From positions 26,613 to 90,612 of the forward strand of contig CAZEAY010000002.1 in assembly GCA_964510655.1 (NCBI GenBank): DNA of 64,000 nt. Reading direction: 5' to 3'. Of this stretch, positions 5,158 through 55,070 are shown piece after piece. The translations under genes and the position numbers were made by a program. This DNA comes from an uncultured Candidatus Saccharibacteria bacterium (GTDB taxonomy: Bacteria > Patescibacteriota > Minisyncoccia > Phycocordibacterales > XYD1-FULL-46-19). Numbering within the stretch: the first letter of the stretch is position 1; each line of letters opens with the position of its first letter. The notes below the pieces were generated by a model that worked only from the letters and a program-made list of their open reading frames with translations, ran no database searches and had not been told where the DNA came from.

Positions 5158-5245
5158 CGGCACAATTTCGAATGTCAGATGTAAAATTAAAAATGAAATA
5201 CGATTTGGTGTATCTTATTTGACTTTTGACATTTGAAATTTGTAA

Positions 5246-6469: not shown

Positions 6470-6485
6470 TTTTACGGTAAAGAAA

Positions 6486-8294: not shown

Positions 8295-8295
8295 T

Positions 8296-8898
8296 ATGTT
8301 TAAAAAAGGTTTTACATTAATTGAAATTTTGGTTGCCATCGGTATTTTTACTGGTATTACTTTGGTTTTGAGTAATTTTCAGAAGGATATTTTTGTTAAT
8401 AATACTTTTATTAAAAATAGTTTAGTGGCGGAAAGTGAAGCGCGGGGGGCACTAAAACGAGCTATTGCCGAGCTCCGTGCTGCTTCTTCCTCTAATAATG
8501 GTCTTTATCCTTTGGCCGTTGCTGATAAAAATACCATTACTTTTTTTTCCGATATTGATCGCGATGGTTTGCGTGAGCGGGTACGCTATTTTGTTGCGAC
8601 CTCTTCACTTTGGCGGGCCGTAACCAAACCAACAGGGGAACCCTATTCTTATTTAGATAGTAATGAAAAAATTACGATGGCCGTTCATGATATTGTTAAT
8701 CCAACATCGACACCGGTTTTTAACTTTTATGATAAAACTTACAATGGTACAACTTCTCCCATGTCTTGGCCGGTTGATATTGCCAACGTCCGTTTAGTCA
8801 GAATGACGATCTTGATTGATACCGACCCTGTTCGATCACCGAAGGTTATGACTTTTTCTAGTCAAGTAATGATTCGTAATCTGAAAGACAACCTTTAA
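8296..8898 (+). CDS. Pseudopilin / minor pilin (prepilin-type N-terminus KKG|FTLIEILVAIGIF)
   Basis: It has the prepilin N-terminal methylation motif, is 200 aa, and is translationally coupled to the upstream ORF by a 1-nt gap. Confidence 0.7.
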   Translation: MFKKGFTLIEILVAIGIFTGITLVLSNFQKDIFVNNTFIKNSLVAESEARGALKRAIAELRAASSSNNGLYPLAVADKNTITFFSDIDRDGLRERVRYFVATSSLWRAVTKPTGEPYSYLDSNEKITMAVHDIVNPTSTPVFNFYDKTYNGTTSPMSWPVDIANVRLVRMTILIDTDPVRSPKVMTFSSQVMIRNLKDNL

Positions 8899-8910
8899 AA
8901 TAAATTTCAA

Positions 8911-10389
8911 ATGTCAAAAGTAAAATTACAAATAAAGAATAAAAAAAATGGCGGATATGTGCTAATTAGTACCTTGGTTTTTGCCACTATTGCCGTAATT
9001 ATTTTGACTGGCGTGGCCTCTTGGTCCGCTACCAACTACCGTTTGGCCAACCAAACAGTAAATCGGGAAAAAGCCTTTCAAATCGCTGAAGCGGGTATTG
9101 ATTACTATCGTTGGCATTTAGCTCATTCACCTCAGGATTTTCAAGATGGCACTGGTCAGGCTGGCCCATACACACACCTGTATTACGATAAATTTGGTAA
9201 TGTAATTGGCAATTACCAATTGACCATTACCCCTCCTTTGGTCGGTTCAACGGTCGTTAAAATTGTTTCTAAGGGTACAGTTGCAAGCACTACTATTTCT
9301 CGTTCTATTGAGGTGATTTTAGCTATTCCCTCCCTGGCTAAATATGCTTTTGTGGCTAATTCTGTGATGCGTTTTGGTGAAGGAACAGAAGTTTTTGGGC
9401 CAATTCATTCTAATGACGGTATTCGGATGGACGGTTTGGCTCATAATATTGTTACTAGTGCTAAATCCACTTACGATGATCCTGATCATAATGGAGGTTT
9501 AGAATTTGGTGTGCATACCCATATTCAAGCGCCTCCCTCTAGTGGTCTGAGTAATGGAGGTTTATCAAGCGAAGCGCCTCCTTCTACTGTTCCTGTCCGG
9601 TCCGATGTTTTTATGTCTGGACGCCAGTTTCCCGTTCCTGCTATTGATTTTAATGGGTTAACTTCTAATTTGGCTAATTTGAAAACCTTAGCTCAGTCAG
9701 CCGGACGTTACTTTGCCTCTTCTGGAGCCCAAGGTTACAATATCGTCTTAAAGACTAATGGGACTTTTGATTTATATAAAGTTACAGCTTTAGTTTCGGC
9801 GGCTCATTCTTGCAATAAACAAAATTGGCCAGATCAGGAGGGTTGGGGAACATTTTCAGTTGGGACTCAAGTCTTCGTTGCTAATTATCCTTTTCCGACC
9901 AATGGAGTAGTTTTTGTCGAGGATAATGTTTGGGTGGAGGGTAAGATTAATAATGCTCGATTAACAATCGCTTCCGGCCGGTTTCCTGAGAGTGTTAACA
10001 CTAATACGAGTATTTCATTTACTAAAGATATTTTGTATACCAATTATGATGGTCGAGATGTCCTTGCTTTAATTGCCCAAAATAATGTTAATGCGGGAAT
10101 GACCAGCGCTGATACGATTGAAGTAGATGCTGCTCTTATTGCTAAAAATGGTCGAGTCGGGAGATATTATTACAATTCTAGTTGTCATCCTTATGATGAT
10201 CGGACTAAGATTAGATTGTACGGTATGATTGGGACTAACCAGCGTTATGGTTTTGCTTATACGGGAAGTCAGAGTGGGGGCTATGCAATAAGGGAAGTTG
10301 TTTATGATGGTAATCTGCTTTATGGTCCACCTCCTTCTTTTCCTTTGACTAGTGATCAATATGTAACGATTAGTTGGAGGGAAATTTAA
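8911..10389 (+). CDS. PilX-like type IV pilus minor pilin/assembly protein (N-terminal TM helix GGYVLISTLVFATIAVIILTG)
   Basis: A PilX-N-like hydrophobic N-terminus follows a short basic leader. It is 492 aa and is the last gene of the pilus operon. Confidence 0.55.
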   Translation: MSKVKLQIKNKKNGGYVLISTLVFATIAVIILTGVASWSATNYRLANQTVNREKAFQIAEAGIDYYRWHLAHSPQDFQDGTGQAGPYTHLYYDKFGNVIGNYQLTITPPLVGSTVVKIVSKGTVASTTISRSIEVILAIPSLAKYAFVANSVMRFGEGTEVFGPIHSNDGIRMDGLAHNIVTSAKSTYDDPDHNGGLEFGVHTHIQAPPSSGLSNGGLSSEAPPSTVPVRSDVFMSGRQFPVPAIDFNGLTSNLANLKTLAQSAGRYFASSGAQGYNIVLKTNGTFDLYKVTALVSAAHSCNKQNWPDQEGWGTFSVGTQVFVANYPFPTNGVVFVEDNVWVEGKINNARLTIASGRFPESVNTNTSISFTKDILYTNYDGRDVLALIAQNNVNAGMTSADTIEVDAALIAKNGRVGRYYYNSSCHPYDDRTKIRLYGMIGTNQRYGFAYTGSQSGGYAIREVVYDGNLLYGPPPSFPLTSDQYVTISWREI

Positions 10390-28830: not shown

Positions 28831-28860
28831 AAAATACCCCTAAAAATAGGGGTATTTTTG
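28831..28860 (+). terminator. Terminator after rplB (aaaatacccctaaaaataggggtattttt)
   Basis: A TACCCCTA/TAGGGGTA stem with a T-tract. It interrupts the normally contiguous rplB-rpsS junction. Confidence 0.75.
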
Positions 28861-28933
28861 ACATATACTCCCACCACTTGCTTTTTATATCTATATATGG
28901 TATAATATAAGAAGGTAAAAAAGGAGTAGTTCC

Positions 28934-29212
28934 ATGAAAAAGTATCTAGGTTTGGTTTTTCTGATGTGTCTGGTGGTATTGACCACCACGGGCTGTGCTT
29001 TCTTTACTCAGGATCACAGTGCCTACCTTCGAGAAAAACAGAAGATTCGTCAGGATCAAGGTGTTGGTCAAGTTGCCTCCTACGAATCAAATCGGTTGGC
29101 AGATCGAGAGCCTGTGACTTCAGGACTCATTGATCTGTGTATCGATATCGTGGCTTATCAGCGGGTAGTGAGGGATTGTTCTTCTTCCTCCACCACTTTG
29201 CAGGGTGAATAA
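28934..29212 (+). CDS. Small lipoprotein (signal peptide with lipobox LTTTG|C). SD-led gene with higher GC.
   Basis: An SD AAGGAG sits at 28921-28926, 7 nt before the ATG. It has MKKYLGLVFLMCLVVLTTTGC and is 92 aa. Confidence 0.5.
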   Translation: MKKYLGLVFLMCLVVLTTTGCAFFTQDHSAYLREKQKIRQDQGVGQVASYESNRLADREPVTSGLIDLCIDIVAYQRVVRDCSSSSTTLQGE

Positions 29213-29226
29213 CTTGACGACATGTA

Positions 29227-29262
29227 GCCCCCCTCAACCCTTTGGGTTGGGGGGATTTTTTA
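29227..29262 (+). terminator. GC-rich hairpin terminator (cccccctcaaccctttgggttggggggatttttt)
   Basis: An imperfect C6AACCC/GGGTTG6 stem followed by T-tracts. Confidence 0.6.
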
Positions 29263-29339
29263 TCCCCCCTTTTTTTATTGAGATAATTCTTCTCCGTGTT
29301 AAAATAAAAGGAATTTTACTAATCTATTAATTTTATTTT

Positions 29340-29807
29340 ATGTTGTTGGAAGCTTCACCCGTCATGATGGAGAATAAACCAAATATTTTTCGTCGCTGGG
29401 CGAGTCTCATCACTCTTTTTATTTTTATTTCGATTTTTAGTTTTGCCGCCTTTAATTATTTTTCTGGTTCTTCTCTAACAGCTGGTTTGTTTAATACCTC
29501 GGCTTATTGTAGTGATGATAAAGGAAATTCGGCGGTTATTCTGTATAACGGTATGCCGGTTGTGAATGTTGTCACTAAGCTAGTTGGAGAATCATCTACT
29601 ATCAAAAAAATTACTTACACTGATTATTTGGGAGAACTAAAAATTGTAATGGATCCCGTAGCGGCTGATCCTATTTTGGTTACTAATATAAAATCTGCCA
29701 TGACTAAAGCGGTCCAAAATTTAACAAAAGAGCAGTCTCTTAAGATAATTGAATTTTCGGCTACTAAATTTGTGACTGCTCCCTTTAAGTGCAAGTACAC
29801 TAAATAA
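29340..29807 (+). CDS. Hypothetical membrane-anchored protein (155 aa), upstream partner of the giant secreted protein
   Basis: An N-terminal TM helix (ITLFIFISIFSFAAFNYF), then a soluble domain. A 3-nt gap separates it from the next ORF, which suggests coupling. Confidence 0.45.
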   Translation: MLLEASPVMMENKPNIFRRWASLITLFIFISIFSFAAFNYFSGSSLTAGLFNTSAYCSDDKGNSAVILYNGMPVVNVVTKLVGESSTIKKITYTDYLGELKIVMDPVAADPILVTNIKSAMTKAVQNLTKEQSLKIIEFSATKFVTAPFKCKYTK

Positions 29808-29810
29808 TTT

Positions 29811-32800
29811 ATGACTAAAATTAAGTATTTTTTATTGAGTTTCCTGCTATTGTTTCCGTTTTTTGTTTCTGCCGTTGATGTTTTTACCACTAGTTACTTA
29901 AAGGAAAAATATCGACAGACTTATGCCACTTGTGGAGTTAAAGCTGTGCCTGGGAGCGATACTGTCCATGATTTGGGTCCCGTTGACAGTTATGGTCAAT
30001 GTTCTGGCTCCTATCCCGACGGATTGGCCGCCGACGCTTATTTGCCTGGTTGCAACCCAATAGCAGGAGAAACCTGGGGGCCTTGGGAGGGTCAGCTATT
30101 CCATGAAAAATCCGGGGCCACTTATCGTCCAGAAGAAATACATCAAGGTTCTACTGCTTATTGTGGTGTGGGCGTAATTAAGTGTGGGGAAGGCTTTAAT
30201 TTCAATGGGGTCACTATGACTGGTGATTATTGTAAGGCTCCGTACATCAAAGATGGTTTTTTTAGTAAGGATGGACAATATGTTGATGAATACTGTATTG
30301 ACTATCAAGCTCCGACTTTTTTAGGTAAATATATTACAGATGGAACAAAAATGGTTCAGTCTTGTTGCACTTCTTTAGCTCACCATGAGACTCACACTTT
30401 TCCTATTATCGGAGATGTAGCCAATGTATTGAGCCAGTGGAACTTGCCGCTGGCTGGAAATTTGGCCGCCGGGGTAAACAGTGCTTCACCGGTAGATTTG
30501 GTTAATAAGGCTAGTTACGATGAATGCTGTAAGGCTCCTGACCAATGTTATGAATTTGGTTTTAATGTGATTAACGCTAGCTTCGCCTTAATAAATCCTC
30601 CATCCACAGGGGCGGCCATCTTAATGACAATGGCTAATAGCATCTTAAATTCGGCGACGGGAGAAATTGGTAAGTATAAAAATCAAGTCTGTCGTTCAGC
30701 TGAACAATCTCAAAATGATCAAACTGCCGCCTCTTATATTGATGATGCTGCCACAATTACCAAACTAGTTAACACTTCTGGGGTAACAGATGTTTTAGCT
30801 AATATAACTTTCTATTTAAGAATTTTACCTACTTATAATAAATGTGGTGGTGGTTCTGCAAAAAATAATTCACCCAAGACTGGTCTCCTAGCCACAACGC
30901 TTGCTTCTAGTGATACTGTCTCAGGTTTCTCATTTACTCCCGAGGCTGCGGCTGGGGGTAAGAGCTGTTCCTTTAAGGTGGTAAAAGGTGGAGTGGATAC
31001 AAACCAACGTGTTTATGTTGCCAATAATTATGTTTTTTTGGATAGTCCAACTTTGAGTTTGAATTCTTCAAAACTCTTTAACAATCAGCCTGGTTACTCC
31101 ACCTCAATGTTAGAAAGAGCTAGGCAGATGGTTAGTCCAGCCATTTACACCCCTAATAAAACTTCTTGGTATTGGAATGGAATTAAGTTTGTTCAAGTAG
31201 ATGATCCTCTGACAGCCTTAAATTTGAATGTTATTTATGCTGGTGTCTCTGCGACTTCACCCGATTTCTTTAATTGTAATGTCAATGATATTCCGAATGT
31301 CGGTCATAGTAATTTGTTTAAAACATTTTTAGCCACTGCTCCAAGTTTATCAATGTGTCCAGTCATTAATTATGGTGATGCTAATAATGACAATCTTAAT
31401 AATTGGACGGACGTTCAGTGTTATCTAAATTTGTTAGGGGATAAGAGTTCCCCCGCCTGTAATCCAGATAAAAAATTAATGGCCTTTAATGACAATAGCG
31501 GGACTGTTATTACTGTCAATGACCTTATGAGAGAGTTGCATGTTATGTCTGACCCCAATCAGCTTATTTATTACAGTTCTGTTAAAAAATATTTAGCTGA
31601 GTCACCTTATAATACAAACTTGCAGTCATGCTTGTTTGGTCGCAATCCAAAAAATAATACATCTTTATTTTCTCCAGCCTTGCCAGATGTTGTGTATAAG
31701 GCGGTCTGCGGAAATAAACTAATTGAAGCTGGTGAGTCGTATGAAACCTGTCCCGCTGATGTGCCGGCACCGGTTGTTAATCCTACCCTCACCTTGATTC
31801 CCTCATCTGGCCTCACTCTTTCTCGGGGTGGAGTGCAGGTTTCAGCAACCACTACTCAATCTCTAGCAAATAATTCCGCAATCTCTTTAACTGCCACTAT
31901 ACCAGCTTCAACTTATTCATCTCGAGCTAGTTCGGTCTCTAAAAAAATCACCTGGACAGGAGTTGATCAAACTATTTGTCCACCTAAGACTGTTGATTGC
32001 AAAATAACCAGTGGAACAGTTTCTTGTTTAGCTCTTACTTCCACTTGTAACTTTACCCTTACTAAAAACACAACAATCCAGCCCAAGTTAGTTCAAATGG
32101 TTGGTATTCAGATTCCTGATACTCCTGCAGTTACTAATTTCACCGCCCCCACTTTTGACTATGGTGCTGGTCAACCATCTCATCGTCTCTGGTTAACCTT
32201 CAATGCCACCGGCTCAGTCAGTTCAATCACCAAGGTCCCTGGTTATGATAAATGCTTTAGCTTCACTGCTTCAACTGATACTGCCTCAGCCGCTTGTCCT
32301 CTTAACCAGCCTATTAAACCTGGTACTAAGTGTGGTATCTACTTACAGGCTAGTAGTGATCGTTGTGTCGTAGCAGTTAAATATCTAACTGGTACTAACA
32401 CGACTAATACTCGTTACTTTGAACAAATCTTCTACAATTCCACCCCTACCACTACGGGGAAAGATACGATTAAGGATCGGGGGACTCGAGCTCCGTCGCC
32501 AGATGATTTTATTCCAGTGGTCCTAACTTCTCCTGTGCCAACGCCAACACCGATTCCTGCGCCAGCTCCTGCTACAAGTCCAACTCCAGTCGTTAATTAC
32601 GCCCTCTCCCTCATTCGTCCTACTACTGGATCTCTAGCTTTCTACTCTTCTCTCAAACTTGTTGCCGCTGATATTACCACCTCTCTGCCAGCTGGCACTA
32701 AGGTTGATCTAAAAGTGAAACGCTCTCCAACTACTCAATCGGGAAGTTCCAGAGCCACTGGTTACAAACTTCGCGTGAACTGGGCTGGCACTTCTTGTCC

Positions 32801-33368
32801 AGAATCAATCACAGACTGCAGTGTTTCACCAGCGGCCATCACTTGTCCCGCGATTGAAACTACTTGTCTCTTTGACTTAACTAAAGATACTCGTGTAGCT
32901 CCTTCATTTACAGCAACACCCGAGTATCCCATCGATACCACCCCTAAAACCCTAACCCTCTCCGTTAACAACCAATCTACTGGCTACATTATCGGTAGCA
33001 AAGACATGGCTGCTAATCCCGTAGAATTCAACTGCGGTCAGGTGGAAGAAATTGGTAATGCTAAGATCTGGCCTGGCACAGCTTGTTCCCAAACCTATCC
33101 TCATGGAACAATTATCACTTTAGTGGCTTCTGTCCCCGGTAATCTCTCTGATGGTAAATCACTCACTCGTGGCACCTTCTCTGGCTGGGGGAGTAATTGT
33201 ACCTCGATGACCACTTGGACTGATATTACTGGTAAATCCTATCAAGCCTGTCAAATCAAACTTGAGGCTAACAAAACCATTTCTGCTTCTTTTACGGGAC
33301 CGACTTCGTGGTTGCTCCGGCCGTTTATCCAGCTCGGGAATATTTGGAACTCATTGTGGTCACGGTAG
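29811..33368 (+). CDS. Giant (1185 aa) Cys-rich secreted protein with internal 4-Cys repeat modules, a Pro/Thr linker, and a C-terminal domain shared with ORF 49365..52550
   Basis: It has the signal peptide MTKIKYFLLSFLLLFPFFVSA and many paired Cys. It has two internal repeats (CPPKTVDCKITSGTVSCLALTSTCNFTLTKNT and CPESITDCSVSPAAITCPAIETTCLFDLTKDT). A linker PVPTPTPIPAPAPATSPTPV follows. The C-terminal ~120 aa (NQSTGYIIGSK...FNCGQVEEIGNAKIWPGTACSQTYPHGTIITLVAS...) is homologous to the C-terminus of the 1061-aa protein. Confidence 0.7.
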   Translation: MTKIKYFLLSFLLLFPFFVSAVDVFTTSYLKEKYRQTYATCGVKAVPGSDTVHDLGPVDSYGQCSGSYPDGLAADAYLPGCNPIAGETWGPWEGQLFHEKSGATYRPEEIHQGSTAYCGVGVIKCGEGFNFNGVTMTGDYCKAPYIKDGFFSKDGQYVDEYCIDYQAPTFLGKYITDGTKMVQSCCTSLAHHETHTFPIIGDVANVLSQWNLPLAGNLAAGVNSASPVDLVNKASYDECCKAPDQCYEFGFNVINASFALINPPSTGAAILMTMANSILNSATGEIGKYKNQVCRSAEQSQNDQTAASYIDDAATITKLVNTSGVTDVLANITFYLRILPTYNKCGGGSAKNNSPKTGLLATTLASSDTVSGFSFTPEAAAGGKSCSFKVVKGGVDTNQRVYVANNYVFLDSPTLSLNSSKLFNNQPGYSTSMLERARQMVSPAIYTPNKTSWYWNGIKFVQVDDPLTALNLNVIYAGVSATSPDFFNCNVNDIPNVGHSNLFKTFLATAPSLSMCPVINYGDANNDNLNNWTDVQCYLNLLGDKSSPACNPDKKLMAFNDNSGTVITVNDLMRELHVMSDPNQLIYYSSVKKYLAESPYNTNLQSCLFGRNPKNNTSLFSPALPDVVYKAVCGNKLIEAGESYETCPADVPAPVVNPTLTLIPSSGLTLSRGGVQVSATTTQSLANNSAISLTATIPASTYSSRASSVSKKITWTGVDQTICPPKTVDCKITSGTVSCLALTSTCNFTLTKNTTIQPKLVQMVGIQIPDTPAVTNFTAPTFDYGAGQPSHRLWLTFNATGSVSSITKVPGYDKCFSFTASTDTASAACPLNQPIKPGTKCGIYLQASSDRCVVAVKYLTGTNTTNTRYFEQIFYNSTPTTTGKDTIKDRGTRAPSPDDFIPVVLTSPVPTPTPIPAPAPATSPTPVVNYALSLIRPTTGSLAFYSSLKLVAADITTSLPAGTKVDLKVKRSPTTQSGSSRATGYKLRVNWAGTSCPESITDCSVSPAAITCPAIETTCLFDLTKDTRVAPSFTATPEYPIDTTPKTLTLSVNNQSTGYIIGSKDMAANPVEFNCGQVEEIGNAKIWPGTACSQTYPHGTIITLVASVPGNLSDGKSLTRGTFSGWGSNCTSMTTWTDITGKSYQACQIKLEANKTISASFTGPTSWLLRPFIQLGNIWNSLWSR

Positions 33369-33438
33369 TTTGAATAAAAATTTTAAGTTAAAAAAAGAAC
33401 CCCAGGTGGTAATCCTGGGGTTTTGTTTATCCTTTGGT

Positions 33439-33945
33439 TTATGGCCAGCTAACCTCTTGGAAGATCTCGGTTTTCTTGATTAGAGTCTCTTCCTCAATTT
33501 CTTTTAGTACTCCGTCTGTTGTGGGCTGTTGCTTACCTTGGGTGGTTTGGGAAATGGCGCAGGTCGGTGCCCCATTTTCATCGAGACTCCCGTAGTCGAT
33601 TATGTGCCAACCTTCTTTCTTTAGGGCTACAATCTCGGTAGGAGTGAGGTAGGCTCCGAGGATAATGTTAGTTCGGTTATTTTGAATGTTCATTACCCAC
33701 CAGAAGGTGTTTTTGCGGTGTTTGGCCCTACCCCAAGCGGTGACATGTCCTTTTTCCAGGTGAGCATTGGCTCGGCTGTAACTGGTGTGGACTTGTCCCC
33801 AGTTTAGCCTAATAAAGTCAGGCAAAGGGTTCGTTATGGGGCTAAGATTTTTTGTCTGTATTTCGTTGGTATCCACCAACGGCTTAGCACAACTGCACCA
33901 CAGCATAATGCCTAGAAATAAGGCTAAAATGCCTAACTTGCTCAT
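33439..33945 (-). CDS. Hypothetical lipoprotein/secreted protein (168 aa), function unknown. It may be cell-wall related.
   Basis: It has the signal peptide MSKLGILALFLGIMLWCSC (lipobox-like) and a His/Trp-rich core (HVTAWGRAKHRKNTFWW). Confidence 0.4.
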   Translation of the reverse strand: MSKLGILALFLGIMLWCSCAKPLVDTNEIQTKNLSPITNPLPDFIRLNWGQVHTSYSRANAHLEKGHVTAWGRAKHRKNTFWWVMNIQNNRTNIILGAYLTPTEIVALKKEGWHIIDYGSLDENGAPTCAISQTTQGKQQPTTDGVLKEIEEETLIKKTEIFQEVSWP

Positions 33946-34394
33946 TGGCGGGCTCCTTATTTGTGAAATGAGACCTAATTATTTAGGATCTTCTTTAATT
34001 ATACCACAATTTGTTAAAAAGTACAATAGAAAGGTGGTTCTAATCCCTTTTTTACTTACAATCTTTCCACCTAAAAGAGGTGCCTTCTGGTGAATTGTTC
34101 AAGATATTGCTTTGTTTGACATTATTATTTTTTTTGCTATGATTAGGTTCGAGTTAGTTTAGTGTTATTTACTATTAACTCGATTTGCAAAAGTCTTGTT
34201 TTTCTGGGACCCCTATCGAGGTTCGATATCCGTGTGCTCAGTCGGGAGGCGGATGGACCGTGGTATAGGATTTTTATTTTGCGATTTTTATTCGTAAAAA
34301 TCGCGTCCGAATCAGCAGATTCGCGGCTTGGCCGCAGGATGGTTGTTTCGATGCAAGGATATAGATAAATATTAAAGAAAAATAGTTTAATTCA

Positions 34395-46666: not shown

Positions 46667-46711
46667 TTGGGAATTTTGATTTTACCTGGTTTATTGTTAC
46701 AATTTAAGACA

Positions 46712-47143
46712 ATGTACCGAAAATGGCTTTTATTGGCTGGGGTGATGGATCTTTTTATCCTAAGTATTTTGGATAAAATTGCTTATCAATATTATCTGTA
46801 TTGGCGTTATCCGCAGTTTGATATTCTGATGCATTTGGTAGGTGGCATCGCCATTGGCTTAGTGTCAGCCTATGTGTATTGGTTATGGCACAGAGAAAAG
46901 GAACCAGAAAAAACGCGGAGTGAAATTGCCGTGGTTAGTTGGAGGTTATTTTTCTTGCTTAACTTCGGCTTTATTTTAACGATTGGTCTTGGTTGGGAAG
47001 TCTTTGAATTATTCGTTGACCGAATTGTTGCTTTTAGCCCTTTAAATATTTTACGAGATTTGTTTTTCGGAATCATTGGTAGTTTATCAGTTGGATTATT
47101 TGTCTTATGGATTCACAATCACAAACTAAAGAAGTTAAAATAA
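46712..47143 (+). CDS. Hypothetical integral membrane protein (about 4 TM). The start is placed at ATG 46712, because the ORF-track start 46667 is a TTG.
   Basis: Hydrophobic segments are present. Its 3' end overlaps the next gene by 37 nt. Confidence 0.45.
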   Translation: MYRKWLLLAGVMDLFILSILDKIAYQYYLYWRYPQFDILMHLVGGIAIGLVSAYVYWLWHREKEPEKTRSEIAVVSWRLFFLLNFGFILTIGLGWEVFELFVDRIVAFSPLNILRDLFFGIIGSLSVGLFVLWIHNHKLKKLK

Positions 47144-49201: not shown

Positions 49202-49211
49202 ATAAAATAAT

Positions 49212-49238
49212 AAAAACCGCCTTATGGCGGTTTTTTTG
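49212..49238 (+). terminator. Terminator (aaaaaccgccttatggcggttttttt)
   Basis: A CCGCC/GGCGG stem with a T-tract. Confidence 0.8.
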
Positions 49239-49364
49239 GTTATCATTTTGGTTATCCACCCCCCACTTTTTTTGTCTATCTGTTAAACGGGTGTATACTT
49301 GGGTTGTCGATAAAATTCGACAACTCATTTTAATAATTTTTAATTTTTAGTTTAATTTAATAAT

Positions 49365-52300
49365 ATGAAAAAAGTTATTTTGGCACTGCTGTTCGTCTTT
49401 ATGATGATCGTTGTGCCTTTTTCAGTTCAAGCTCAGACTGTTGCTGAGCTTCAAGCTATAATTGCTAGTTTGCAGGCTCAGATTGCAGCTCTGGTTGGTG
49501 GGGGCGGAGGAACAGTTGACATTCCACCAGTCACCCCTACTCCGTCCTGTTACACCTTTACCCGTGATTTATGGGTGGGAAGTGTGGGCGACGATGTCAG
49601 GGACTTACAATTATTTTTAAACAGAGAAGTTGGTTCTAGTCTTCCGACGACCCCTTACTTCGGTAATGAAACCAAGCTGGCTCTTATTAAGTTTCAGAGA
49701 GCAAATGGTATTCCATTAACTGGATACTTCGGTCCTCTTACGAGGGCAGCAGTATCAGCAAAAAATGCGGGGTGTGTTGTTGTTCCACCATCAACGACAA
49801 TGAGTTTTATTGATCCAAAAGCCGGAGAGGTGGTTAAAGCGGGAACTGCCTATATGGTTAATTGGGGTGGTTCATGGAGTGGAAATGATTCCTTCAATAT
49901 AACCGAATTCTTAGATAGCGGGAAAGATTTTATTGTTTCTGGACTTACTCAAGAACAGGCGGGATGTCCTGGTTATGGCAAAGGGGTATGCAGTTTTTCA
50001 TGGACCCCTAAGGAGGCTTCGTCTAGAGCTCAATTAGCCATTCAGCGACAATATAACGGGGGAGGCAAAGGTGGGGGAGATATAGCATATTCCGAATTTT
50101 TTTCTGTAGCAGCGGGAAATCAACAAAATAGTGGCGGAGAAGCTTATATTCAGGGAATACCAACACTATCTATCAGTCAAAATTATCGGGATGGGTACAC
50201 TTCGCGCTCAGCGCTAACTATTACGGCGAGAGGAGTTCTGAATTCTAGAGGTGGAGATTCCTATGTTTACCAACAGTCCGGCAGTTTAGGCTTTTACGCT
50301 AAAAGTATGTCTGGCAAGAATTTACCAACACAGGGTACTGCGATCTCTTTTACTATGAACGCTCCAGTTGTCACTGATAGGCTTGGTAATTCTTACTATA
50401 AACTCAGTGAGGGCACTCCTTACTCCTTTACGCAGACAGTTTCTTATGACACCGGATTAATGTTTGGGGGAGTTTATAAGGGAATGTTGTCTCATCTTTC
50501 TTACTTCCGTGACGTAAACGATGTTGCTAATAATATTAATCCAGTGGGAGTTGAAGTGGGTCCTTACAGTAGTCCATCAGCTTATGTCGTTGGAGAAAAG
50601 GGTCCATATCTTACTTCTGCTATTGAAATGGGTAAAAATGAAGTTGGGATGCTTTATCGGGTAAATGGTGAAAGACTAGACGGTAATTCCGTAGTCTACG
50701 TTGACGGTTCTGTCTATGCAAAACAGCCAGATATTGCTTTACCTGCCAGCAGAGATAGTTTATTGTTTGGCTCTCAACCGCTTTCTCCTGGAAATCATTA
50801 TGTTTATGTTGTAAACCCAACAACGGGTCGCAGTAATACTGTTTATTTGCAGGTAGGAAATACGACAAATGAGCCCTCTCTAACTGTTACGACTCCAAAC
50901 GGTGGTGAAATTTATTATTCGAATGATCTACAAGTTTCTTGGCAGTCAAATTATAATTCTCAGTCAGTAAAAGTTCATTTATATAGTCCGATTGATGGAG
51001 ATAAGTATGTTTCTCCAAACCTTAATAGTACGATTGGTGGGAATTCCTTTATTATCCCAGCTGGGACAATAAGAGCTATGAATTCCGGGCAATACAAGAT
51101 AAATGTTTGTGATGATAATCAATCTCCTTCTGGAGATGGCCTGTCAGGAAAGTCCCTTTGTGATTTAAGTGATGATTATTTTACCCTTAAGGGAAGTACA
51201 TCTAATATTTTCCCTGTCGCTAACCCGGTCATCAGTTCCTTTACTGGACCAAACGTTATCACCGCTGGTCAGACAGGAACTTGGACTGCCAGTTTAGCCT
51301 CTTCTTCTGGTCCTGGCTATACTTACTCTATTGATTGGGGAGATGGTTCTGGTTTCCAAAATATTACTAACCCAGCTGTCGCTACCTCAAATATTCGCGG
51401 AACCCATTCTTATGCCAGAGCTGGATCATACGATGTCACTTTTAGAATTTCTTATTATGCGAGTGTTACTTGTGTGAGAGCTCCTTGTAATCCGGTGGCA
51501 CGGACGGTAGAGGCTAAGAATGTTGTCACGGTGGCGGCTGCGACTACTCCTACTAACGGCTGGTGTGGTTCAGCTAATGGTCAGTCATATCCTACTCAGC
51601 CAGACTCAAGTCTCACTTGCTCCAGAGGGACCAGTGCGGATATGAGAACAACAACTACTGGGTGGGCGTGGAATTGTTTGGGTACTAATGGAGGAATTCC
51701 TGTCTCTTGTTGGGCGACTAAGTCAGTAGTGGCTCCGCCAACATCTGTAGATTTGTCGGTTTCTCAGACGATTAGTTCCAATCCATCTCTTGAGAATATC
51801 TATGAAGATAGTCAGGTTACTTTTACGGTAGAAGTTAACAATCCAAGTCAGACATCCTTAGCTGATGTTACTGGTTATTGGATTGTTAATGGAGTAACTT
51901 TCAGTATAAACAAAATGACTGGTAATACCTCCGCTATTACGGTCCCTGCCAATAAAATTTTCCCTGGGCGAAACAATGTAAACTTCAAGATTTATCCACC
52001 GGCTTCAATGAACGAACAAAACACTTGGAATAATACCGTTGATACTTATTTCAATGTTAAAACTCGTACTGTTGAGTCTGATGTACCTCGTACTTTGACA
52101 ATTAATATCGATAACCAATCTACTGGTTATGTAATTGGTGGAAAAAATAATGCTCAGGGTATAAGTGCAATTGAGTTCAATTGTGGACAGCAGGAAGAGG
52201 TTGCTAATGCTAAGATTTGGACCGGTACCGCCTGTTCCCAGACTTATCCAAATGGCACAATTATCACTCTAGTTGCTTCCCATACAGGACTCTTGAAACC

Positions 52301-52550
52301 AGATAATAAAGCGATTGTTCGGGGAACTTTTGGTGGTTGGGGTAATAGTTGTAACTCAAAATCTACTTGGACTTCTATTTACGGTGAAACCTTTGAATCG
52401 TGTTTAGTCAATCTTAATCAGGATAAAGTGATTAATGTTAGTTTTACGGCTCCAGCCTCGGGTTCTACAGGGTTGAACATTTCCTCTGTGAATCAGATGG
52501 CTAATCTTTTGCAATCACTTCAGACTATCCTTAATGGTCTGAAACGCTAG
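49365..52550 (+). CDS. Giant (1061 aa) secreted protein with an N-terminal coiled/Gly segment, a peptidoglycan-binding (PG_binding_1-like) domain, a long beta-rich region, and a C-terminal domain shared with ORF 29811..33368
   Basis: It has the signal peptide MKKVILALLFVFMMIVVPFSVQA. A PGBD-like segment follows (DLWVGSVGDDVRDLQLFLN...GYFGPLTRAAV). The C-terminus is NQSTGYVIGGKNNAQGISAIEFNCGQQEEVANAKIWTGTACSQTYPNGTIITLVAS...SFTAP and the tail is NQMANLLQSLQTILNGLKR. Confidence 0.7.
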   Translation: MKKVILALLFVFMMIVVPFSVQAQTVAELQAIIASLQAQIAALVGGGGGTVDIPPVTPTPSCYTFTRDLWVGSVGDDVRDLQLFLNREVGSSLPTTPYFGNETKLALIKFQRANGIPLTGYFGPLTRAAVSAKNAGCVVVPPSTTMSFIDPKAGEVVKAGTAYMVNWGGSWSGNDSFNITEFLDSGKDFIVSGLTQEQAGCPGYGKGVCSFSWTPKEASSRAQLAIQRQYNGGGKGGGDIAYSEFFSVAAGNQQNSGGEAYIQGIPTLSISQNYRDGYTSRSALTITARGVLNSRGGDSYVYQQSGSLGFYAKSMSGKNLPTQGTAISFTMNAPVVTDRLGNSYYKLSEGTPYSFTQTVSYDTGLMFGGVYKGMLSHLSYFRDVNDVANNINPVGVEVGPYSSPSAYVVGEKGPYLTSAIEMGKNEVGMLYRVNGERLDGNSVVYVDGSVYAKQPDIALPASRDSLLFGSQPLSPGNHYVYVVNPTTGRSNTVYLQVGNTTNEPSLTVTTPNGGEIYYSNDLQVSWQSNYNSQSVKVHLYSPIDGDKYVSPNLNSTIGGNSFIIPAGTIRAMNSGQYKINVCDDNQSPSGDGLSGKSLCDLSDDYFTLKGSTSNIFPVANPVISSFTGPNVITAGQTGTWTASLASSSGPGYTYSIDWGDGSGFQNITNPAVATSNIRGTHSYARAGSYDVTFRISYYASVTCVRAPCNPVARTVEAKNVVTVAAATTPTNGWCGSANGQSYPTQPDSSLTCSRGTSADMRTTTTGWAWNCLGTNGGIPVSCWATKSVVAPPTSVDLSVSQTISSNPSLENIYEDSQVTFTVEVNNPSQTSLADVTGYWIVNGVTFSINKMTGNTSAITVPANKIFPGRNNVNFKIYPPASMNEQNTWNNTVDTYFNVKTRTVESDVPRTLTINIDNQSTGYVIGGKNNAQGISAIEFNCGQQEEVANAKIWTGTACSQTYPNGTIITLVASHTGLLKPDNKAIVRGTFGGWGNSCNSKSTWTSIYGETFESCLVNLNQDKVINVSFTAPASGSTGLNISSVNQMANLLQSLQTILNGLKR

Positions 52551-52572
52551 ATTTTGGATTAAGGTTATTTTA

Positions 52573-52604
52573 AAAACCCCAAGCTCTAAAGCTTGGGGTT
52601 TTTG
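52573..52604 (+). terminator. Terminator (aaaaaccccaagctctaaagcttggggttttt)
   Basis: A CCCCAAGCT/AGCTTGGGG stem with a T-tract. Confidence 0.85.
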
Positions 52605-52734
52605 GTAAAGGGGAGATAAATTTTCTTATTTTATATGTTATAATGTTATTAATCACCGTATTTTTTAAGCAAGTGTTCTTTTTTTTGTTATCATTCTAAG
52701 TTTATAGTTTTTAATATTAATTTTTTACTAAATC

Positions 52735-55014
52735 ATGTTTAAGAAAATTGTAGCTTCGCTCGTATTGGTGTTTATTCTTGTTCCAATTTTAACAAAAAAT
52801 ATTTCTTTTTTTGGCTTAGAGAAAATACTAGCACGGATTCAGAACCAAATGACCGCTGGACTTTTTGTTAGCTGTCTCGATTCGTCAGATAACAGTTCAA
52901 CAAGCAATGTGAGTTGTACAGAAATATCAGGTTTGTTTGTGGAACAGCCAAATTCTAATGAGCACGCTAATTCTTTTTCTAACGCGGTAAAGAGGGAAAA
53001 AACTTTTAAAATTAACAACTCCTTACTCGATGGGACTAAATTAAAAAAAGGCGTCCAGATAGATATTCCTCTTTTTTCTGATGCTAAATTTAAAGGACGG
53101 GTTGAAGAAATTATTTTCCGGTTACCAACTAGTTTCACTTTGATTGGTACTATTAATCGTGATCGGGCGGGAAAATTTTATTGGACTAGAGAGGGAGATG
53201 CCTCCTCAATAGATATTTCTTCGTCTGATGGTTTGTATGAGGTTAGACCCGTTTCCAACGGTAAACATGTTGTTAGTGAGATCAATGAAGATAAACTGCC
53301 TCCGTACGATGATACCTTGTTGGTTGATAACGATATTGTTAGTACTGGAACTTTAGATACTTCTTCGTCTTCAGTTGACTCTAGTGGAAATACAATAGTG
53401 GATGTCTTGGTCGTTTACACTCCAGCCGCCAGAATAGCCGCCGGGGGAGTTTCTGGGATAACATCTAACATTCGTTTGGCTGTAGATAAGGCTAATCAAG
53501 CTTACTTGAATAGTGGGGTAAAAATAAAACTAAATCTCGTCGGTCCTAATGGTGACCCCTATGAAGTTGCTGGTTATACCGAGACAGGTGATTCCCATGT
53601 TGATTTATCACGTTTGGCTGGAACTTCAGATGGCTATATGGATGAAGTCCACAATCTAAGAAATACATATGGAGCAGATCTGGTAAATTTAATTGGGCAA
53701 AATATTGGGTCTGTCTGTGGGACAGCTTATCTAATGCGTTCAGTTTCTTTGTCCTTTGCTTCCTCAGCTTTTTCTGTGGTGGCTCGTGGTTGTATTAGTA
53801 ATCATAGTTTTGCTCATGAACTCGGACACAATATGGGTGCCGCTCATGATGTGGCGAATGCTTCAAGCGCTGGAGCCTATCCTTATTCGTACGGTTGGCG
53901 TTGGGCGGGATCTAGCGGGGCTGTTTTTCGCAGTATAATGTCTTATTCACCAGGGACGAGGATTAATTATTTTTCTAATCCTGCTGTTTTGTATGATGGC
54001 ATACCAACTGGTGTAAATGAGGCTAATAATTCTCTTACTTTAAATAACACCGCCCCCACAGTTTCTCAGTTTCGTAATTCTCCCGATCTTATTTCGCCCT
54101 TAGTCTCAATTACTAATCCTGTTTCTGGATCTACCTATATTTCATCTCAGATTCTACCAATTTCTGTTTTAGCCAGTGATAATGTAGGGATTGCGCGAGT
54201 AGAATTCTATGACAATGATACGATAAAAGGAACTATAAATAGTGCTCCTTATTCCTATAATTGGAACATTAATTCTACTAATAATGGTGCTCACCGCTGG
54301 ACAGCTAAGGTCTACGATACCTCTGGTAATAATGCTATCTCTGACCCAGTGGGAATAAATGTCGATATTCCTAATCTGGATGATGTTGCTCCGGTTGTGA
54401 CTATTGTCAGTCCAGCAGCTAGTTCGACAGTCTCTGGTGTTGTAAATGTTTCGGTAAATGCAACCGACAATCTTGGAGTTTCTAGTGTGGAATTTTATTT
54501 AGATAATGTCTTAAAAACAACTAAATCAGTGACCCCTTACGTTTTTGCTTGGGATACTAAGACTGTAGTTGATGGAGTTTACTCACTTAAGTCTAAAGCT
54601 TATGACATAGTGGGAAATGTTGGAATAGCTGGACCACTTAATGTAATTGTTAAAAATGCTAGTCTTGTAGATACTATTCCACCATTGGTAACAATAAAGG
54701 GACCGTCGGTAATAAGTAACAAGAATAAAACTTTTACGGCTTCTTCGTCGGATAATGTTGGGGTGGCAAAGGTTGAATTTTATCTAGATAGTGCAACTGC
54801 TCCATTTATCACTGACACTAGTATGCCTTACAGCGCCACCATAAACACCAAAAAACTTTCTGTTGGTTCTCATATTATTTTCGCTAAAGCCTATGACTTG
54901 TCTGGTAATACTGCTTCCTCGAGTATGTCCTTTTCTTATGGATTGGCTTATAACTTATTTAATCAATTGGCCAATATTTTGGTCTCCGTTGGGACAATCC
55001 TTGGTCTTAGGTAG
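52735..55014 (+). CDS. Secreted zinc metalloprotease (HExxHxxGxxH, reprolysin/metzincin-like) followed by about 4 tandem Ig-like domains and a conserved C-terminal tail
   Basis: An N-terminal anchor or signal (LVLVFILVPIL) is present. The catalytic motif is FAHELGHNMGAAHD. Tandem ~90-aa repeats each carry ...DN(V/L)GV(A/S)(R/K)VEFY(L)D.... The tail NQLANILVSVGTILGLR matches the tail of the preceding giant protein. Confidence 0.7.
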   Translation: MFKKIVASLVLVFILVPILTKNISFFGLEKILARIQNQMTAGLFVSCLDSSDNSSTSNVSCTEISGLFVEQPNSNEHANSFSNAVKREKTFKINNSLLDGTKLKKGVQIDIPLFSDAKFKGRVEEIIFRLPTSFTLIGTINRDRAGKFYWTREGDASSIDISSSDGLYEVRPVSNGKHVVSEINEDKLPPYDDTLLVDNDIVSTGTLDTSSSSVDSSGNTIVDVLVVYTPAARIAAGGVSGITSNIRLAVDKANQAYLNSGVKIKLNLVGPNGDPYEVAGYTETGDSHVDLSRLAGTSDGYMDEVHNLRNTYGADLVNLIGQNIGSVCGTAYLMRSVSLSFASSAFSVVARGCISNHSFAHELGHNMGAAHDVANASSAGAYPYSYGWRWAGSSGAVFRSIMSYSPGTRINYFSNPAVLYDGIPTGVNEANNSLTLNNTAPTVSQFRNSPDLISPLVSITNPVSGSTYISSQILPISVLASDNVGIARVEFYDNDTIKGTINSAPYSYNWNINSTNNGAHRWTAKVYDTSGNNAISDPVGINVDIPNLDDVAPVVTIVSPAASSTVSGVVNVSVNATDNLGVSSVEFYLDNVLKTTKSVTPYVFAWDTKTVVDGVYSLKSKAYDIVGNVGIAGPLNVIVKNASLVDTIPPLVTIKGPSVISNKNKTFTASSSDNVGVAKVEFYLDSATAPFITDTSMPYSATINTKKLSVGSHIIFAKAYDLSGNTASSSMSFSYGLAYNLFNQLANILVSVGTILGLR

Positions 55015-55024
55015 TGTCGTTCCT

Positions 55025-55063
55025 AAAAAATAACCCCTCGATTTAGTCGAGGGGTTATTTTTT
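55025..55063. terminator. Bidirectional terminator (aaaaaataacccctcgatttagtcgaggggttatttttt)
   Basis: A 12-bp palindrome AACCCCTCGA/TCGAGGGGTT flanked by A- and T-tracts, between convergent genes. Confidence 0.85.
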
Positions 55064-55070
55064 AGGAATC

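What the first reader, a model, noticed from the sequence alone, without database searches (positions are those of the whole stretch)
52200..55014. Conserved C-terminal tail motif shared by adjacent, otherwise unrelated secreted proteins, a candidate novel sorting/secretion signal
The 1061-aa peptidoglycan-binding giant ends ...SSVNQMANLLQSLQTILNGLKR-COOH. The next gene, a metzincin-type protease with Ig-like repeats, ends ...YNLFNQLANILVSVGTILGLR-COOH. The tails align as NQ[ML]AN[LI]L[QV]S[LV].TIL.GL(K)R. The 1185-aa giant at 29811..33368 ends ...FIQLGNIWNSLWSR, repeating the QL[AG]NI[LW]...R core. The segment is amphipathic rather than a TM helix and lacks LPxTG, PEP-CTERM or T9SS-CTD features. 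This points to a lineage-specific C-terminal recognition tag for export, surface attachment or pilus association. The organism has T4P but no obvious sortase or T9SS in this window.
Basis: seen in the sequence. Interest (0 to 1): 0.68.

Follow-up and report, generated by a model that had tools for sequence, protein, structure and literature searches.

The report
Conserved C-terminal helix on exported proteins
Two neighbouring exported proteins of an ultra-small (Patescibacteria-type) bacterium, and their few relatives, end in the same 20-residue helix; it is real and selected but rare, and looks more like a surface-tethering or docking helix than a new secretion signal.

Summary
The core observation holds. 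Protein A (49365..52550) ends VNQMANLLQSLQTILNGLKR. Protein B (52735..55014) ends FNQLANILVSVGTILGLR. Among all 2278 pairs of C-terminal 26-mers in the window, A-B scores 49; the next best scores 31. Twelve of 18 aligned residues are identical and six of those use different codons, so conservation is at protein level. Three more proteins from related metagenomic genomes carry the same tail at their very end, although their domains are shuffled. The third example, giant C (29811..33368), is not demonstrably the same motif (shuffle p 0.03-0.06). It shares a 125-aa domain with A just before the tail. Its tail is Trp/Phe-rich and resembles the membrane-surface anchor of E. coli PBP5. No known sorting-signal model matches any tail, and no sortase-like enzyme is in the window. 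A profile search of 1.84 billion proteins, plus genome and metagenome scans, found only this handful. All carriers are exported, fast-evolving multidomain proteins encoded in variable islands between housekeeping genes. My best reading is a non-covalent tethering or docking helix. A dedicated sorting tag is possible but unsupported. Interest is moderate.

The parts
49365..52550 (+). Gene A, 1061 aa. Order of parts: signal peptide (cleavage VQA|QT), N-terminal helix, PG_binding_1, PKD, unclassified Ig-like regions, 125-aa Cys-containing domain, linker, C-terminal tail.
49434..49496 (+). N-terminal helix QTVAELQAIIASLQAQIAALV, directly after the signal-peptidase site. It is a widespread motif in CPR PG_binding_1 proteins and is not the same motif as the tail.
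52086..52460 (+). 125-aa Cys-containing domain of A (aa 908-1032), shared with C at 58% identity. No Pfam family.
52446..52487 (+). Ser/Thr/Gly-rich linker TAPASGSTGLNISS, between the last domain and the tail.
   Evidence: read from the sequence; the other tail carriers have comparable linkers
52488..52547 (+). Class-1 tail of A, VNQMANLLQSLQTILNGLKR-COOH. Heptad amphipathic helix with hydrophobic a/d/g positions and an uncharged Q/N/S/T/G polar face.
52735..55014 (+). Gene B, 759 aa. Order of parts: N-terminal signal or anchor sequence, short helix, reprolysin-like metzincin (HELGHNMGAAHD), three Big_7 domains, class-1 tail.
54958..55011 (+). Class-1 tail of B, FNQLANILVSVGTILGLR-COOH. Predicted helix 738-755 in a low-confidence model.
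55021..55067 (.). Long hairpin terminator directly after B. It lies between the converging genes B and rplT, so the stop codon of B is a true gene end.
29811..33368 (+). Gene C, 1185 aa, with signal peptide (VSA|VD) and no Pfam family. It carries the same 125-aa domain as A at aa 1045-1166 (32943..33308).
33306..33365 (+). Class-2 tail of C, SWLLRPFIQLGNIWNSLWSR-COOH. Trp/Phe-rich amphipathic helix. The orthologue on L013 keeps it as SWIFKPFELFGNVWGGVWGR.
49202..55070 (.). Variable island holding A and B, between the SLOG-cluster4 gene and rplT. It is absent in two close relatives and differently filled in others.
28835..34211 (.). Variable island holding a 155-aa TM protein, C and a 168-aa minus-strand gene. 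It is inserted between rplB and rpsS.

Best explanation
Two kinds of C-terminal amphipathic helix were lumped together.

Class 1 comprises A, B and three relatives. It is a ~20-residue module with consensus [LVF]-x-Q-[ML]-[AG]-[NST]-[LIV]-L-x-S-[LIV]-x-[TA]-x-[LM]-x-[GAS]-L-[KA]-[RQ]-COOH, preceded by a short Ser/Thr/Gly-rich linker. It sits on Sec-exported, multidomain, fast-evolving envelope proteins. I propose that it stays on the mature protein and acts as a non-covalent tether: a docking helix that ties the C-terminus to the cell surface. The most likely mode is packing against another helix, either the same tail on a neighbouring protein or an unidentified surface or membrane partner. 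One concrete version: protease B, which has no wall-binding domain, is held next to wall-bound proteins such as A.

Class 2 comprises C and its orthologue. It is a Trp/Phe-rich helix that most likely lies in the plane of the outer leaflet of the cytoplasmic membrane, like the C-terminal 18 residues of E. coli PBP5.

Shown: the position, the conservation, the predicted helicity, the amphipathicity, the rarity, and the lack of any known signal. Inferred: retention on the mature protein, the tethering role, and the identity of the partner.
For: (1) The tail is strictly terminal in every carrier. The tail HMM hits only the last residues of A-type proteins in 213 kb of related loci translated in six frames, with no internal or off-frame hit above noise.

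(2) It persists while domains are shuffled. A, P0002 and the second L002 protein share detectably only the N-terminal ~170 aa and the tail. Tail identity is 35-60%, against 14-39% global identity for the protein bodies.

(3) One carrier was found independently of its tail. The L002 1008..4508 protein came to attention only as a neighbour of P0003, and it ends NLSQMASVLQSLQAVLDALK.

(4) Conservation is at protein level, shown by synonymous codon differences.

(5) The heptad pattern has hydrophobic a/d/g positions. Both the hydrophobic face and the uncharged polar stripe (Q3, N6, S10, T/A13, G/A/S17) are conserved (read from the tails aligned, plus the L002 protein, with the heptad register). 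That pattern suits helix-helix packing better than simple lipid contact.

(6) Class-1 tails have unremarkable interfacial hydrophobicity: Wimley-White sums of +1 to +4 kcal/mol for A, P0002, P0003 and the L002 protein, and -1.3 for B. Class-2 tails score -5.7 and -4.8 with very high moment, the same range as the PBP5 anchor (both the scale and the PBP5 sequence are from memory). The role of the PBP5 helix is documented in PMC2909392.

(7) The tail is predicted helical in both low-confidence AF2 models.

(8) The tail is too short and too polar for a TM segment.

(9) No processing enzyme is in the window.

(10) The carriers sit in variable islands, as expected for accessory surface proteins.
Against: There is no experimental or structural evidence for any partner. 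The AF2 models are unreliable (mean pLDDT 36-37) and monomeric. Only five class-1 tails are known, and four of them sit on homologous N-terminal frames, so B is the only truly independent architecture. A 20-residue helix is short for a stable two-stranded coiled coil. Whether the tail is cleaved off cannot be decided from sequence. The whole proteome could not be scanned, so enrichment among exported proteins is not quantified beyond the window (class-1 tails on 2 of about 9 exported proteins, 3 of about 9 if C's class-2 tail is counted; none on cytoplasmic proteins).
Confidence: 0.42

Rival explanations
1. Dedicated sorting or attachment signal. An unknown enzyme or transporter recognises the NQ[ML]AN...L[KR] tail and cleaves it or attaches the protein, as sortase, exosortase or rhombosortase do.
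For: The tail is at the extreme C-terminus of signal-peptide proteins of unrelated architecture. It has a conserved polar signature (Q-x-x-N) followed by a more hydrophobic stretch and one or two terminal basic residues, which loosely echoes tripartite signals. Both faces of the helix are conserved, as for a recognised peptide (tails aligned).
Against: There is no TM segment and no match to any NCBIfam or Pfam sorting model. No candidate enzyme is in 64 kb or next to the tail genes in L002 and L003. Distribution is very narrow, only 5 clusters in 1.84 billion representatives, whereas known systems have many substrates per genome and wide phyletic spread. Close relatives lack the A/B island altogether.
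Confidence: 0.15
2. Pure oligomerisation element. The tail forms a short homo- or hetero-oligomeric coiled coil that assembles the passenger domains into trimers, tetramers or A-B complexes, with no anchoring role.
For: The heptad pattern has hydrophobic a/d/g positions and Leu/Gln-rich composition. Tail-bearing genes occur as adjacent pairs: A+B in the window and two paralogues in L002.
Against: There are only about 2.5-3 heptads. In L003 a single tail-bearing gene stands next to a tail-less neighbour. No multimer prediction was possible.
Confidence: 0.2
3. In-plane membrane anchor for all tails, class 1 included. The polar Ser/Thr/Gly/Asn/Gln face resembles lipid-packing-sensor (ALPS-like) helices, which might suit the strongly curved membrane of ultra-small cells.
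For: The helices are cleanly amphipathic, with Eisenberg moments above the 98th percentile for A, P0002 and P0003. The polar face is uncharged and the C-terminus carries K/R. Class-2 tails clearly fit this model. PBP5 is a precedent (PMC2909392).
Against: Class-1 interfacial free-energy sums are ordinary for A, P0002, P0003 and the L002 protein (27th-68th percentile of body 20-mers); B is lower, at the 5th percentile. Conserved polar residues are not expected for a simple lipid contact. The moments of B and the L002 protein are unremarkable (82nd-86th percentile).
Confidence: 0.15
4. No specific function. The tail is a leftover of a shared ancestral 3' end, spread by recombination among neighbouring surface-protein genes.
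For: The genes are adjacent and lie in recombination-prone variable islands. The family shows conserved ends and a variable middle.
Against: Synonymous differences occur at half of the conserved residues and no shared DNA word exceeds 6 nt. The tail is better conserved than the protein bodies across genomes whose housekeeping genes are only about 75-85% identical at DNA level.
Confidence: 0.08

Closest known systems
C-terminal amphipathic membrane anchor of low-molecular-weight PBPs (E. coli PBP5/DacA, PBP6, PBP4)
   Same: It is a Sec-exported enzyme whose last ~18 residues form an amphipathic helix tethering it non-covalently to the outer face of the cytoplasmic membrane (PMC2909392). Tail C and its orthologue match in length, terminal position, aromatic richness, interfacial free energy and moment.
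   Different: There is no sequence similarity. Class-1 tails (A, B) are Leu/Gln-rich with no aromatic residue in A, P0002 or the L002 protein (one Phe in B, one Tyr in P0003), and their interfacial hydrophobicity is ordinary or, in B, only mildly favourable. The carrier proteins are giant multidomain proteins, not carboxypeptidases. Membrane binding is untested here.
Short C-terminal coiled-coil or docking helices that assemble or tether extracellular proteins (general kind; no single family)
   Same: The tail has heptad a/d periodicity, is linker-separated from the globular domains, is conserved on both helix faces, and occurs on adjacent genes.
   Different: No partner is identified, there are only 2.5-3 heptads, and no homology to any solved coiled coil was found.
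Tripartite C-terminal sorting signals (LPXTG/sortase, PEP-CTERM/exosortase, GlyGly-CTERM/rhombosortase, PGF-CTERM/archaeosortase)
   Same: They sit at the extreme C-terminus of signal-peptide proteins of many architectures, with a short conserved signature and terminal basic residue(s).
   Different: The tail has no transmembrane helix and no model match. No cognate enzyme was seen. There are far fewer substrates and a far narrower distribution.
ALPS-type amphipathic lipid-packing sensor helices (eukaryotic ArfGAP1 and others; from general knowledge)
   Same: Bulky hydrophobic residues every 3-4 positions, with a polar face made of Ser/Thr/Gly/Asn/Gln and almost no charge.
   Different: ALPS motifs are cytosolic, longer (20-40 aa), and not conserved in sequence. 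This is a resemblance of composition only.

Membership tests
LPXTG/sortase sorting signal | LPXTG-like pentapeptide about 30-35 residues from the C-terminus | tested here: not met
   There is no LPXTG-like motif in the last 50 residues of A, B or C. NCBIfam and Pfam give no hit.
LPXTG/sortase sorting signal | Hydrophobic membrane-spanning segment followed by a basic tail | tested here: not met
   Mean Kyte-Doolittle of the tails is -0.3 to 1.0. The longest apolar run is about 13 residues, in B. Only 1-2 terminal basic residues are present.
LPXTG/sortase sorting signal | Sortase gene in the genome | tested here: inconclusive
   None was found among 23 non-ribosomal ORFs of the 64-kb window. The rest of the genome was not available.
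PEP-CTERM, GlyGly-CTERM, PGF-CTERM and related exosortase/rhombosortase/archaeosortase signals | Match to the curated C-terminal domain HMMs (signature motif + TM + Arg-rich end) | tested here: not met
   NCBIfam release 20 gave no hit at E <= 10 on the isolated tails or at E <= 1 on the full proteins.
T9SS C-terminal domain | 80-100-aa beta-sandwich CTD recognised by Pfam or TIGRFAM models | tested here: not met
   No such hit was found. The tail is a 20-residue predicted helix.
T1SS C-terminal secretion signal | No N-terminal Sec signal; secretion by an adjacent ABC/MFP pair | tested here: not met
   A and C have canonical Sec signal peptides with AXA-type sites, and B has an N-terminal hydrophobic signal or anchor sequence without a clear AXA-type site. 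No ABC/MFP genes flank them.
PBP5-type C-terminal in-plane amphipathic anchor | Extreme C-terminal helix of about 18-20 residues with high hydrophobic moment on a Sec-exported protein | tested here: met
   C: Eisenberg moment 0.56, Wimley-White moment at the 99.6th percentile. A: Eisenberg moment above all 20-mers from the bodies of five exported window proteins (printed as the 100th percentile). B and the L002 protein reach only the 82nd-86th percentile.
PBP5-type C-terminal in-plane amphipathic anchor | Favourable water-to-interface partitioning (aromatic-rich apolar face) | tested here: inconclusive
   Met for C and its orthologue (-5.7 and -4.8 kcal/mol; PBP5 -5.0). Not met for A, P0002, P0003 and the L002 protein (+1.2 to +4.0). 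B is intermediate (-1.3) (scale from memory).
PBP5-type C-terminal in-plane amphipathic anchor | Demonstrated membrane association that is lost on deleting the tail | not testable with these tools
   This needs fractionation of tail-deleted constructs, as done for PBP5 (PMC2909392).
Coiled-coil oligomerisation or docking helix | Heptad repeat with apolar a/d positions over at least 3 heptads | tested here: inconclusive
   The a/d/g positions are apolar over 2.5-3 heptads in class-1 tails. This length is borderline.
Coiled-coil oligomerisation or docking helix | Defined oligomer or partner interface | not testable with these tools
   Only monomer AF2 without coordinates was available, and confidence was low.

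The most novel reading that the evidence does not exclude
The class-1 tail is the recognition tag of a so far unknown, clade-specific surface-attachment system of Patescibacteria. A dedicated receptor or enzyme elsewhere in the genome would capture the NQ[ML]AN...L[KR]-COOH helix. Interchangeable passenger-domain cassettes, encoded in variable islands, would then all be displayed through one C-terminal handle.
Probability: 0.15. Interest if true: 0.7.

Novelty: new variant of a known kind. Interest (0 to 1): 0.38.

Why it matters
Patescibacteria live attached to other microbes, and how they display and retain their large, fast-changing surface proteins is largely unknown. A conserved C-terminal handle on proteins whose middle parts are freely shuffled would give a concrete, testable element for surface display in one clade. 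It would also be a convenient tag for finding further surface proteins there. However, the motif is confined to a handful of proteins in public data, so as it stands it is a family-level feature rather than a general principle.

Tried and rejected
(1) A tail-only alignment as a word-indexed protein search returned nothing, although protein A itself is in that database.

(2) A profile of six tails against 1.84 billion representatives returned only the five training proteins, plus four eukaryotic tandem-repeat artefacts. The search has no power below about 36 bits.

(3) I scanned genome contigs with a tail pattern and with the A/C domain, and viral contigs with the tail. Nothing was confirmed. 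By my own rough estimate, the 72 pattern matches in genomes are about what chance gives.

(4) I considered that the C tail is a copy of the widespread N-terminal AELQAQIAAL helix. Rejected: an HMM of 14 N-terminal helices scores the tails at only about 2 bits.

(5) I considered a recent DNA duplication or gene conversion between A and B. Rejected on codon usage.

(6) I considered that the conserved 5' and 3' ends serve as recombination substrates for cassette exchange. Not supported at present: there is no shared DNA word longer than 6 nt in the tails.

(7) AF2 on the A C-terminal region (2-sequence alignment) and on full-length B (single sequence) gave mean pLDDT 36-37. Only the helical state of the tails could be read. 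I did not run fold searches on such models.

(8) A PDB sequence search with the tail profile gave nothing.

(9) Literature searches for a CPR C-terminal signal gave nothing relevant.

(10) A search for homologues of C found none other than itself. Its orthologue was reached only through synteny.

Full report
**What is in the window.** The window has 40% G+C. It carries a ribosomal-protein cluster, a type IV pilus gene set (3403..10389) and many proteins with no family. The nearest named homologues come from Paceibacterota, Minisyncoccia, Liptonbacteria and Magasanikbacteria. It is therefore a Patescibacteria (CPR) genome fragment. The exact proteins exist once in the public protein collection, on a 116,858-bp NCBI contig.

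**The three proteins.**
- Protein A (49365..52550, 1061 aa) has a signal peptide, then the helix QTVAELQAIIASLQAQIAALV, a PG_binding_1 domain, a PKD domain and unclassified regions. It ends ...SSVNQMANLLQSLQTILNGLKR.
- Protein B (52735..55014, 759 aa) is a reprolysin-like metzincin with three Big_7 domains. It ends ...LFNQLANILVSVGTILGLR.
- Protein C (29811..33368, 1185 aa) matches no Pfam family. It ends ...SWLLRPFIQLGNIWNSLWSR.

**Checking the observation.**
- I compared the last 26 residues of 68 non-overlapping window ORFs all against all. The A-B pair scores 49. The next best of 2278 pairs scores 31 (mean 14.5, sd 3.8).
- Composition-preserving shuffles give p <= 2e-4 for A-B.
- At DNA level the two tails are 37/54 identical. 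Six of the 12 identical residues use different codons, and the longest shared word is 6 nt. The resemblance is therefore kept at protein level and is not a recent duplication.
- The C tail is different. It scores 21-22 against A and B (shuffle p 0.06 and 0.03). An HMM built from A-type tails does not find it.
- What links A and C is a 125-aa Cys-containing domain, 58% identical, that immediately precedes the tail in both.
- A and B also share weak similarity across the signal peptide and the following helix (E 0.002).
- 'Otherwise unrelated' is therefore only approximately true.

**Relatives.**
- Homologues of A found through their N-terminal and middle domains carry the same kind of tail. P0002 ends KLDQMANILQSIQAMMNALKQ and P0003 ends SLMELGTILKYLQANLNSLAR.
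- The gene next to P0003 on contig L002 was looked at only because it is a neighbour. It ends NLSQMASVLQSLQAVLDALK.
- P0002 is the positional orthologue of A on a 225-kb JGI contig: the MBL-fold RNase, SLOG, rplT, infC and smpB genes are syntenic.
- Between A, P0002 and the L002 protein, BLASTP detects only the N-terminal ~170 residues, scattered Ig/PKD-like pieces in a different order, and the tail.
- Identity over the last 20 residues is 35-60%. Global identity over the bodies is 14-39%.
- The tail HMM hits nothing but these true C-termini in 213 kb of related loci translated in six frames, or in the six-frame window.
- The class-1 tail is thus a real module, pinned to the extreme C-terminus while everything between the two ends is rearranged.

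**How rare it is.**
- A profile of six tails run against 1.84 billion representative proteins returned only the five training clusters at E <= 0.001, plus four eukaryotic tandem-repeat artefacts.
- Pattern scans confirmed no locus in 185,579 species-representative genomes and none in viral contigs.
- They confirmed one locus in JGI metagenomes, which is P0002 itself.
- The profile search cannot see matches below about 36 bits, so divergent tails may exist. Even so, nothing like the breadth of a general sorting signal is present.
- Pfam and NCBIfam, which include the curated C-terminal sorting-domain models, hit neither the proteins' ends nor the isolated tails. The PDB gives nothing.

**Anatomy of the class-1 tail.**
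- A Ser/Thr/Gly/Asn-rich linker precedes about 20 residues that both AF2 runs draw as a helix: A residues 1040-1060 and B residues 738-755. Both models have very low confidence (mean pLDDT 36-37).
- In heptad register the a, d and g positions are Leu/Ile/Met/Val. The opposite face is uncharged: Q3, N6, S10, T/A13 and G/A/S17. Both faces are conserved between A, B, P0002 and the L002 protein.
- The chain ends in one or two basic residues, or K-Q.
- Mean hydropathy (-0.1 to 1.0 for class 1) and the apolar run length exclude a membrane span.

**Two physico-chemical classes.** I used a Wimley-White interfacial scale, with values taken from memory.
- Four of the five class-1 tails are ordinary, at +1.2 to +4.0 kcal/mol (27th-68th percentile of 20-mers from the same proteins). 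B is lower, at -1.3.
- Tail C and its orthologue (SWIFKPFELFGNVWGGVWGR, found by synteny on L013) score -5.7 and -4.8, with moments above the 99th percentile. That is indistinguishable from the E. coli PBP5 anchor, whose sequence I also took from memory.
- The last 18 residues of PBP5 are an established amphipathic helix that tethers the enzyme to the outer face of the inner membrane (PMC2909392).
- In the C orthologue the adjacent domain aligns at 80% DNA identity, but the alignment stops at the tail. There the Trp, Phe, Pro and Gly-Asn positions persist while the polar positions drift to Gly. A lipid-interface helix is expected to behave this way.

**Genomic setting.** Both tail-bearing loci are variable islands.
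- In two close relatives (L017 and the contig of P0061) the SLOG gene is followed directly by rplT, so A and B are absent. These relatives have a SLOG protein clustered with the window's at 90% identity, and L017's flanking DNA is 72-86% identical to the window's (no DNA was obtained for the P0061 contig).
- In L003 the slot holds P0002 and a tail-less PG-binding protein.
- In L013/L014 the slot holds an A-like protein with a different domain order.
- The C island (28835..34211) is inserted between rplB and rpsS. It is absent in L015/L016, present in L020+L013, and replaced by a different secreted giant in L021.
- These are accessory, rapidly diversifying envelope proteins. That fits host-contact or wall-remodelling roles in an episymbiont (an inference).

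**How it most likely works.** No sortase-, exosortase- or rhombosortase-like gene is among the 23 non-ribosomal ORFs scanned, nor next to the tail genes in L002 or L003. The tail lacks the signature-TM-basic build. It is also too rare for a system with dedicated machinery. I therefore favour (0.42) a non-covalent tethering or docking helix that stays on the mature protein.
- For class 1, conservation of both faces together with ordinary lipid affinity points to helix-helix packing. The partner could be the tails of neighbouring proteins. Tail genes do occur in adjacent pairs, and protease B has no wall-binding domain whereas A does. The partner could also be an unidentified surface component.
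- For class 2, an in-plane membrane anchor of the PBP5 kind is the straightforward reading.
- Rivals: pure oligomerisation (0.20), an in-plane lipid anchor for all tails (0.15), a true sorting signal with an undiscovered enzyme (0.15), and a functionless shared remnant (0.08). The last is disfavoured by the synonymous-site pattern and by the tail being better conserved than the protein bodies.

**Limits.**
- Only five class-1 tails are known, and four of them sit on homologous N-terminal frames. B is the single independent architecture.
- Structure prediction was uninformative beyond helicity.

**Verdict.** The motif is real and under selection. It matches no family model in Pfam or NCBIfam, and four literature searches found no description of it. 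It is also confined to a small clade, and its function is inferred only by analogy. I rate it a new variant of a known kind (C-terminal amphipathic tethering helices), of moderate interest.

Noticed in passing
window 28835-34211 (compare L015 10841-11029, L020 5368-9183, L021 4931-8222): A 5.4-kb block is inserted inside the S10 ribosomal-protein operon, between rplB and rpsS. It holds a 155-aa TM protein, giant C and a minus-strand 168-aa lipoprotein-like gene. Relatives have nothing there (L015/L016), the same block (L020+L013), or a different secreted giant of at least 1038 aa (L021). This seems to be a hot spot for surface-protein genes within an otherwise rigid operon.
   Followed up: partly
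window 49202-55070 (compare L017 5073-5143, L003 6907-11729): The A+B pair occupies a variable slot between the SLOG-cluster4 gene and rplT. The slot is empty in two close relatives and differently filled in others.
   Followed up: partly
window 49434-49496; N-termini of P0002-P0026: The motif [AQV]T[VI]AELQAQIxALxAQLAAL[QS]G lies directly after the signal-peptidase site in about 18 of the 27 hits to A, nearly all PG_binding_1 proteins from CPR-type metagenomes. It is an Ala/Gln/Leu heptad helix with no annotated function. It is distinct from the C-terminal tail: its HMM scores the tails at only about 2 bits.
   Followed up: partly
window 52086-52460 and 32943-33308; L013 16454-17296: An unclassified 125-aa Cys-containing domain (...EFNCGQ..NAKIW.GTACSQTYP.GTIITLVAS...) is shared by A and C at 58% identity. 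In the A-like protein of L013 it sits directly after PG_binding_1. It has no Pfam family and gave no hit in species-representative genomes.
   Followed up: partly
window 29340-29807 and L020 5957-6424: A 155-aa protein with a single TM segment sits immediately upstream of C, 3 nt before it in the window. It is conserved together with C in the relative and is a possible partner of C.
   Followed up: no
L020 649-2628; L015 15315-16607: There are further insertions within ribosomal-protein operons of relatives. A 659-aa beta-helix secreted protein lies between rpsJ and rplC, and an Nramp transporter lies between rplE and rpsH.
   Followed up: no
L004 1946-4192 (P0024, Candidatus Liptonbacteria) and L011 1474-2433 (minus strand): Other exported CPR proteins end in short aromatic amphipathic tails (FFSRVANLFTNIFK; SVWTSFKLFIQKINPFRWI). 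C-terminal interfacial helices may be a more general, sequence-diverse feature of CPR surface proteins.
   Followed up: partly
window 6486-8294: A 602-aa pseudopilin has an N-terminal methylation motif fused to a CarboxypepD_reg-like domain. It lies in the T4P cluster next to two further pilin-like genes.
   Followed up: no
window 46667-47143 (L013 13736-14164, L017 2514-2948): A small multi-pass membrane protein is conserved upstream of the MBL/beta-CASP RNase in all relatives. Precomputed Pfam calls the orthologues DUF2238, while hmmscan of the window copy gave no hit at E <= 0.01.
   Followed up: no
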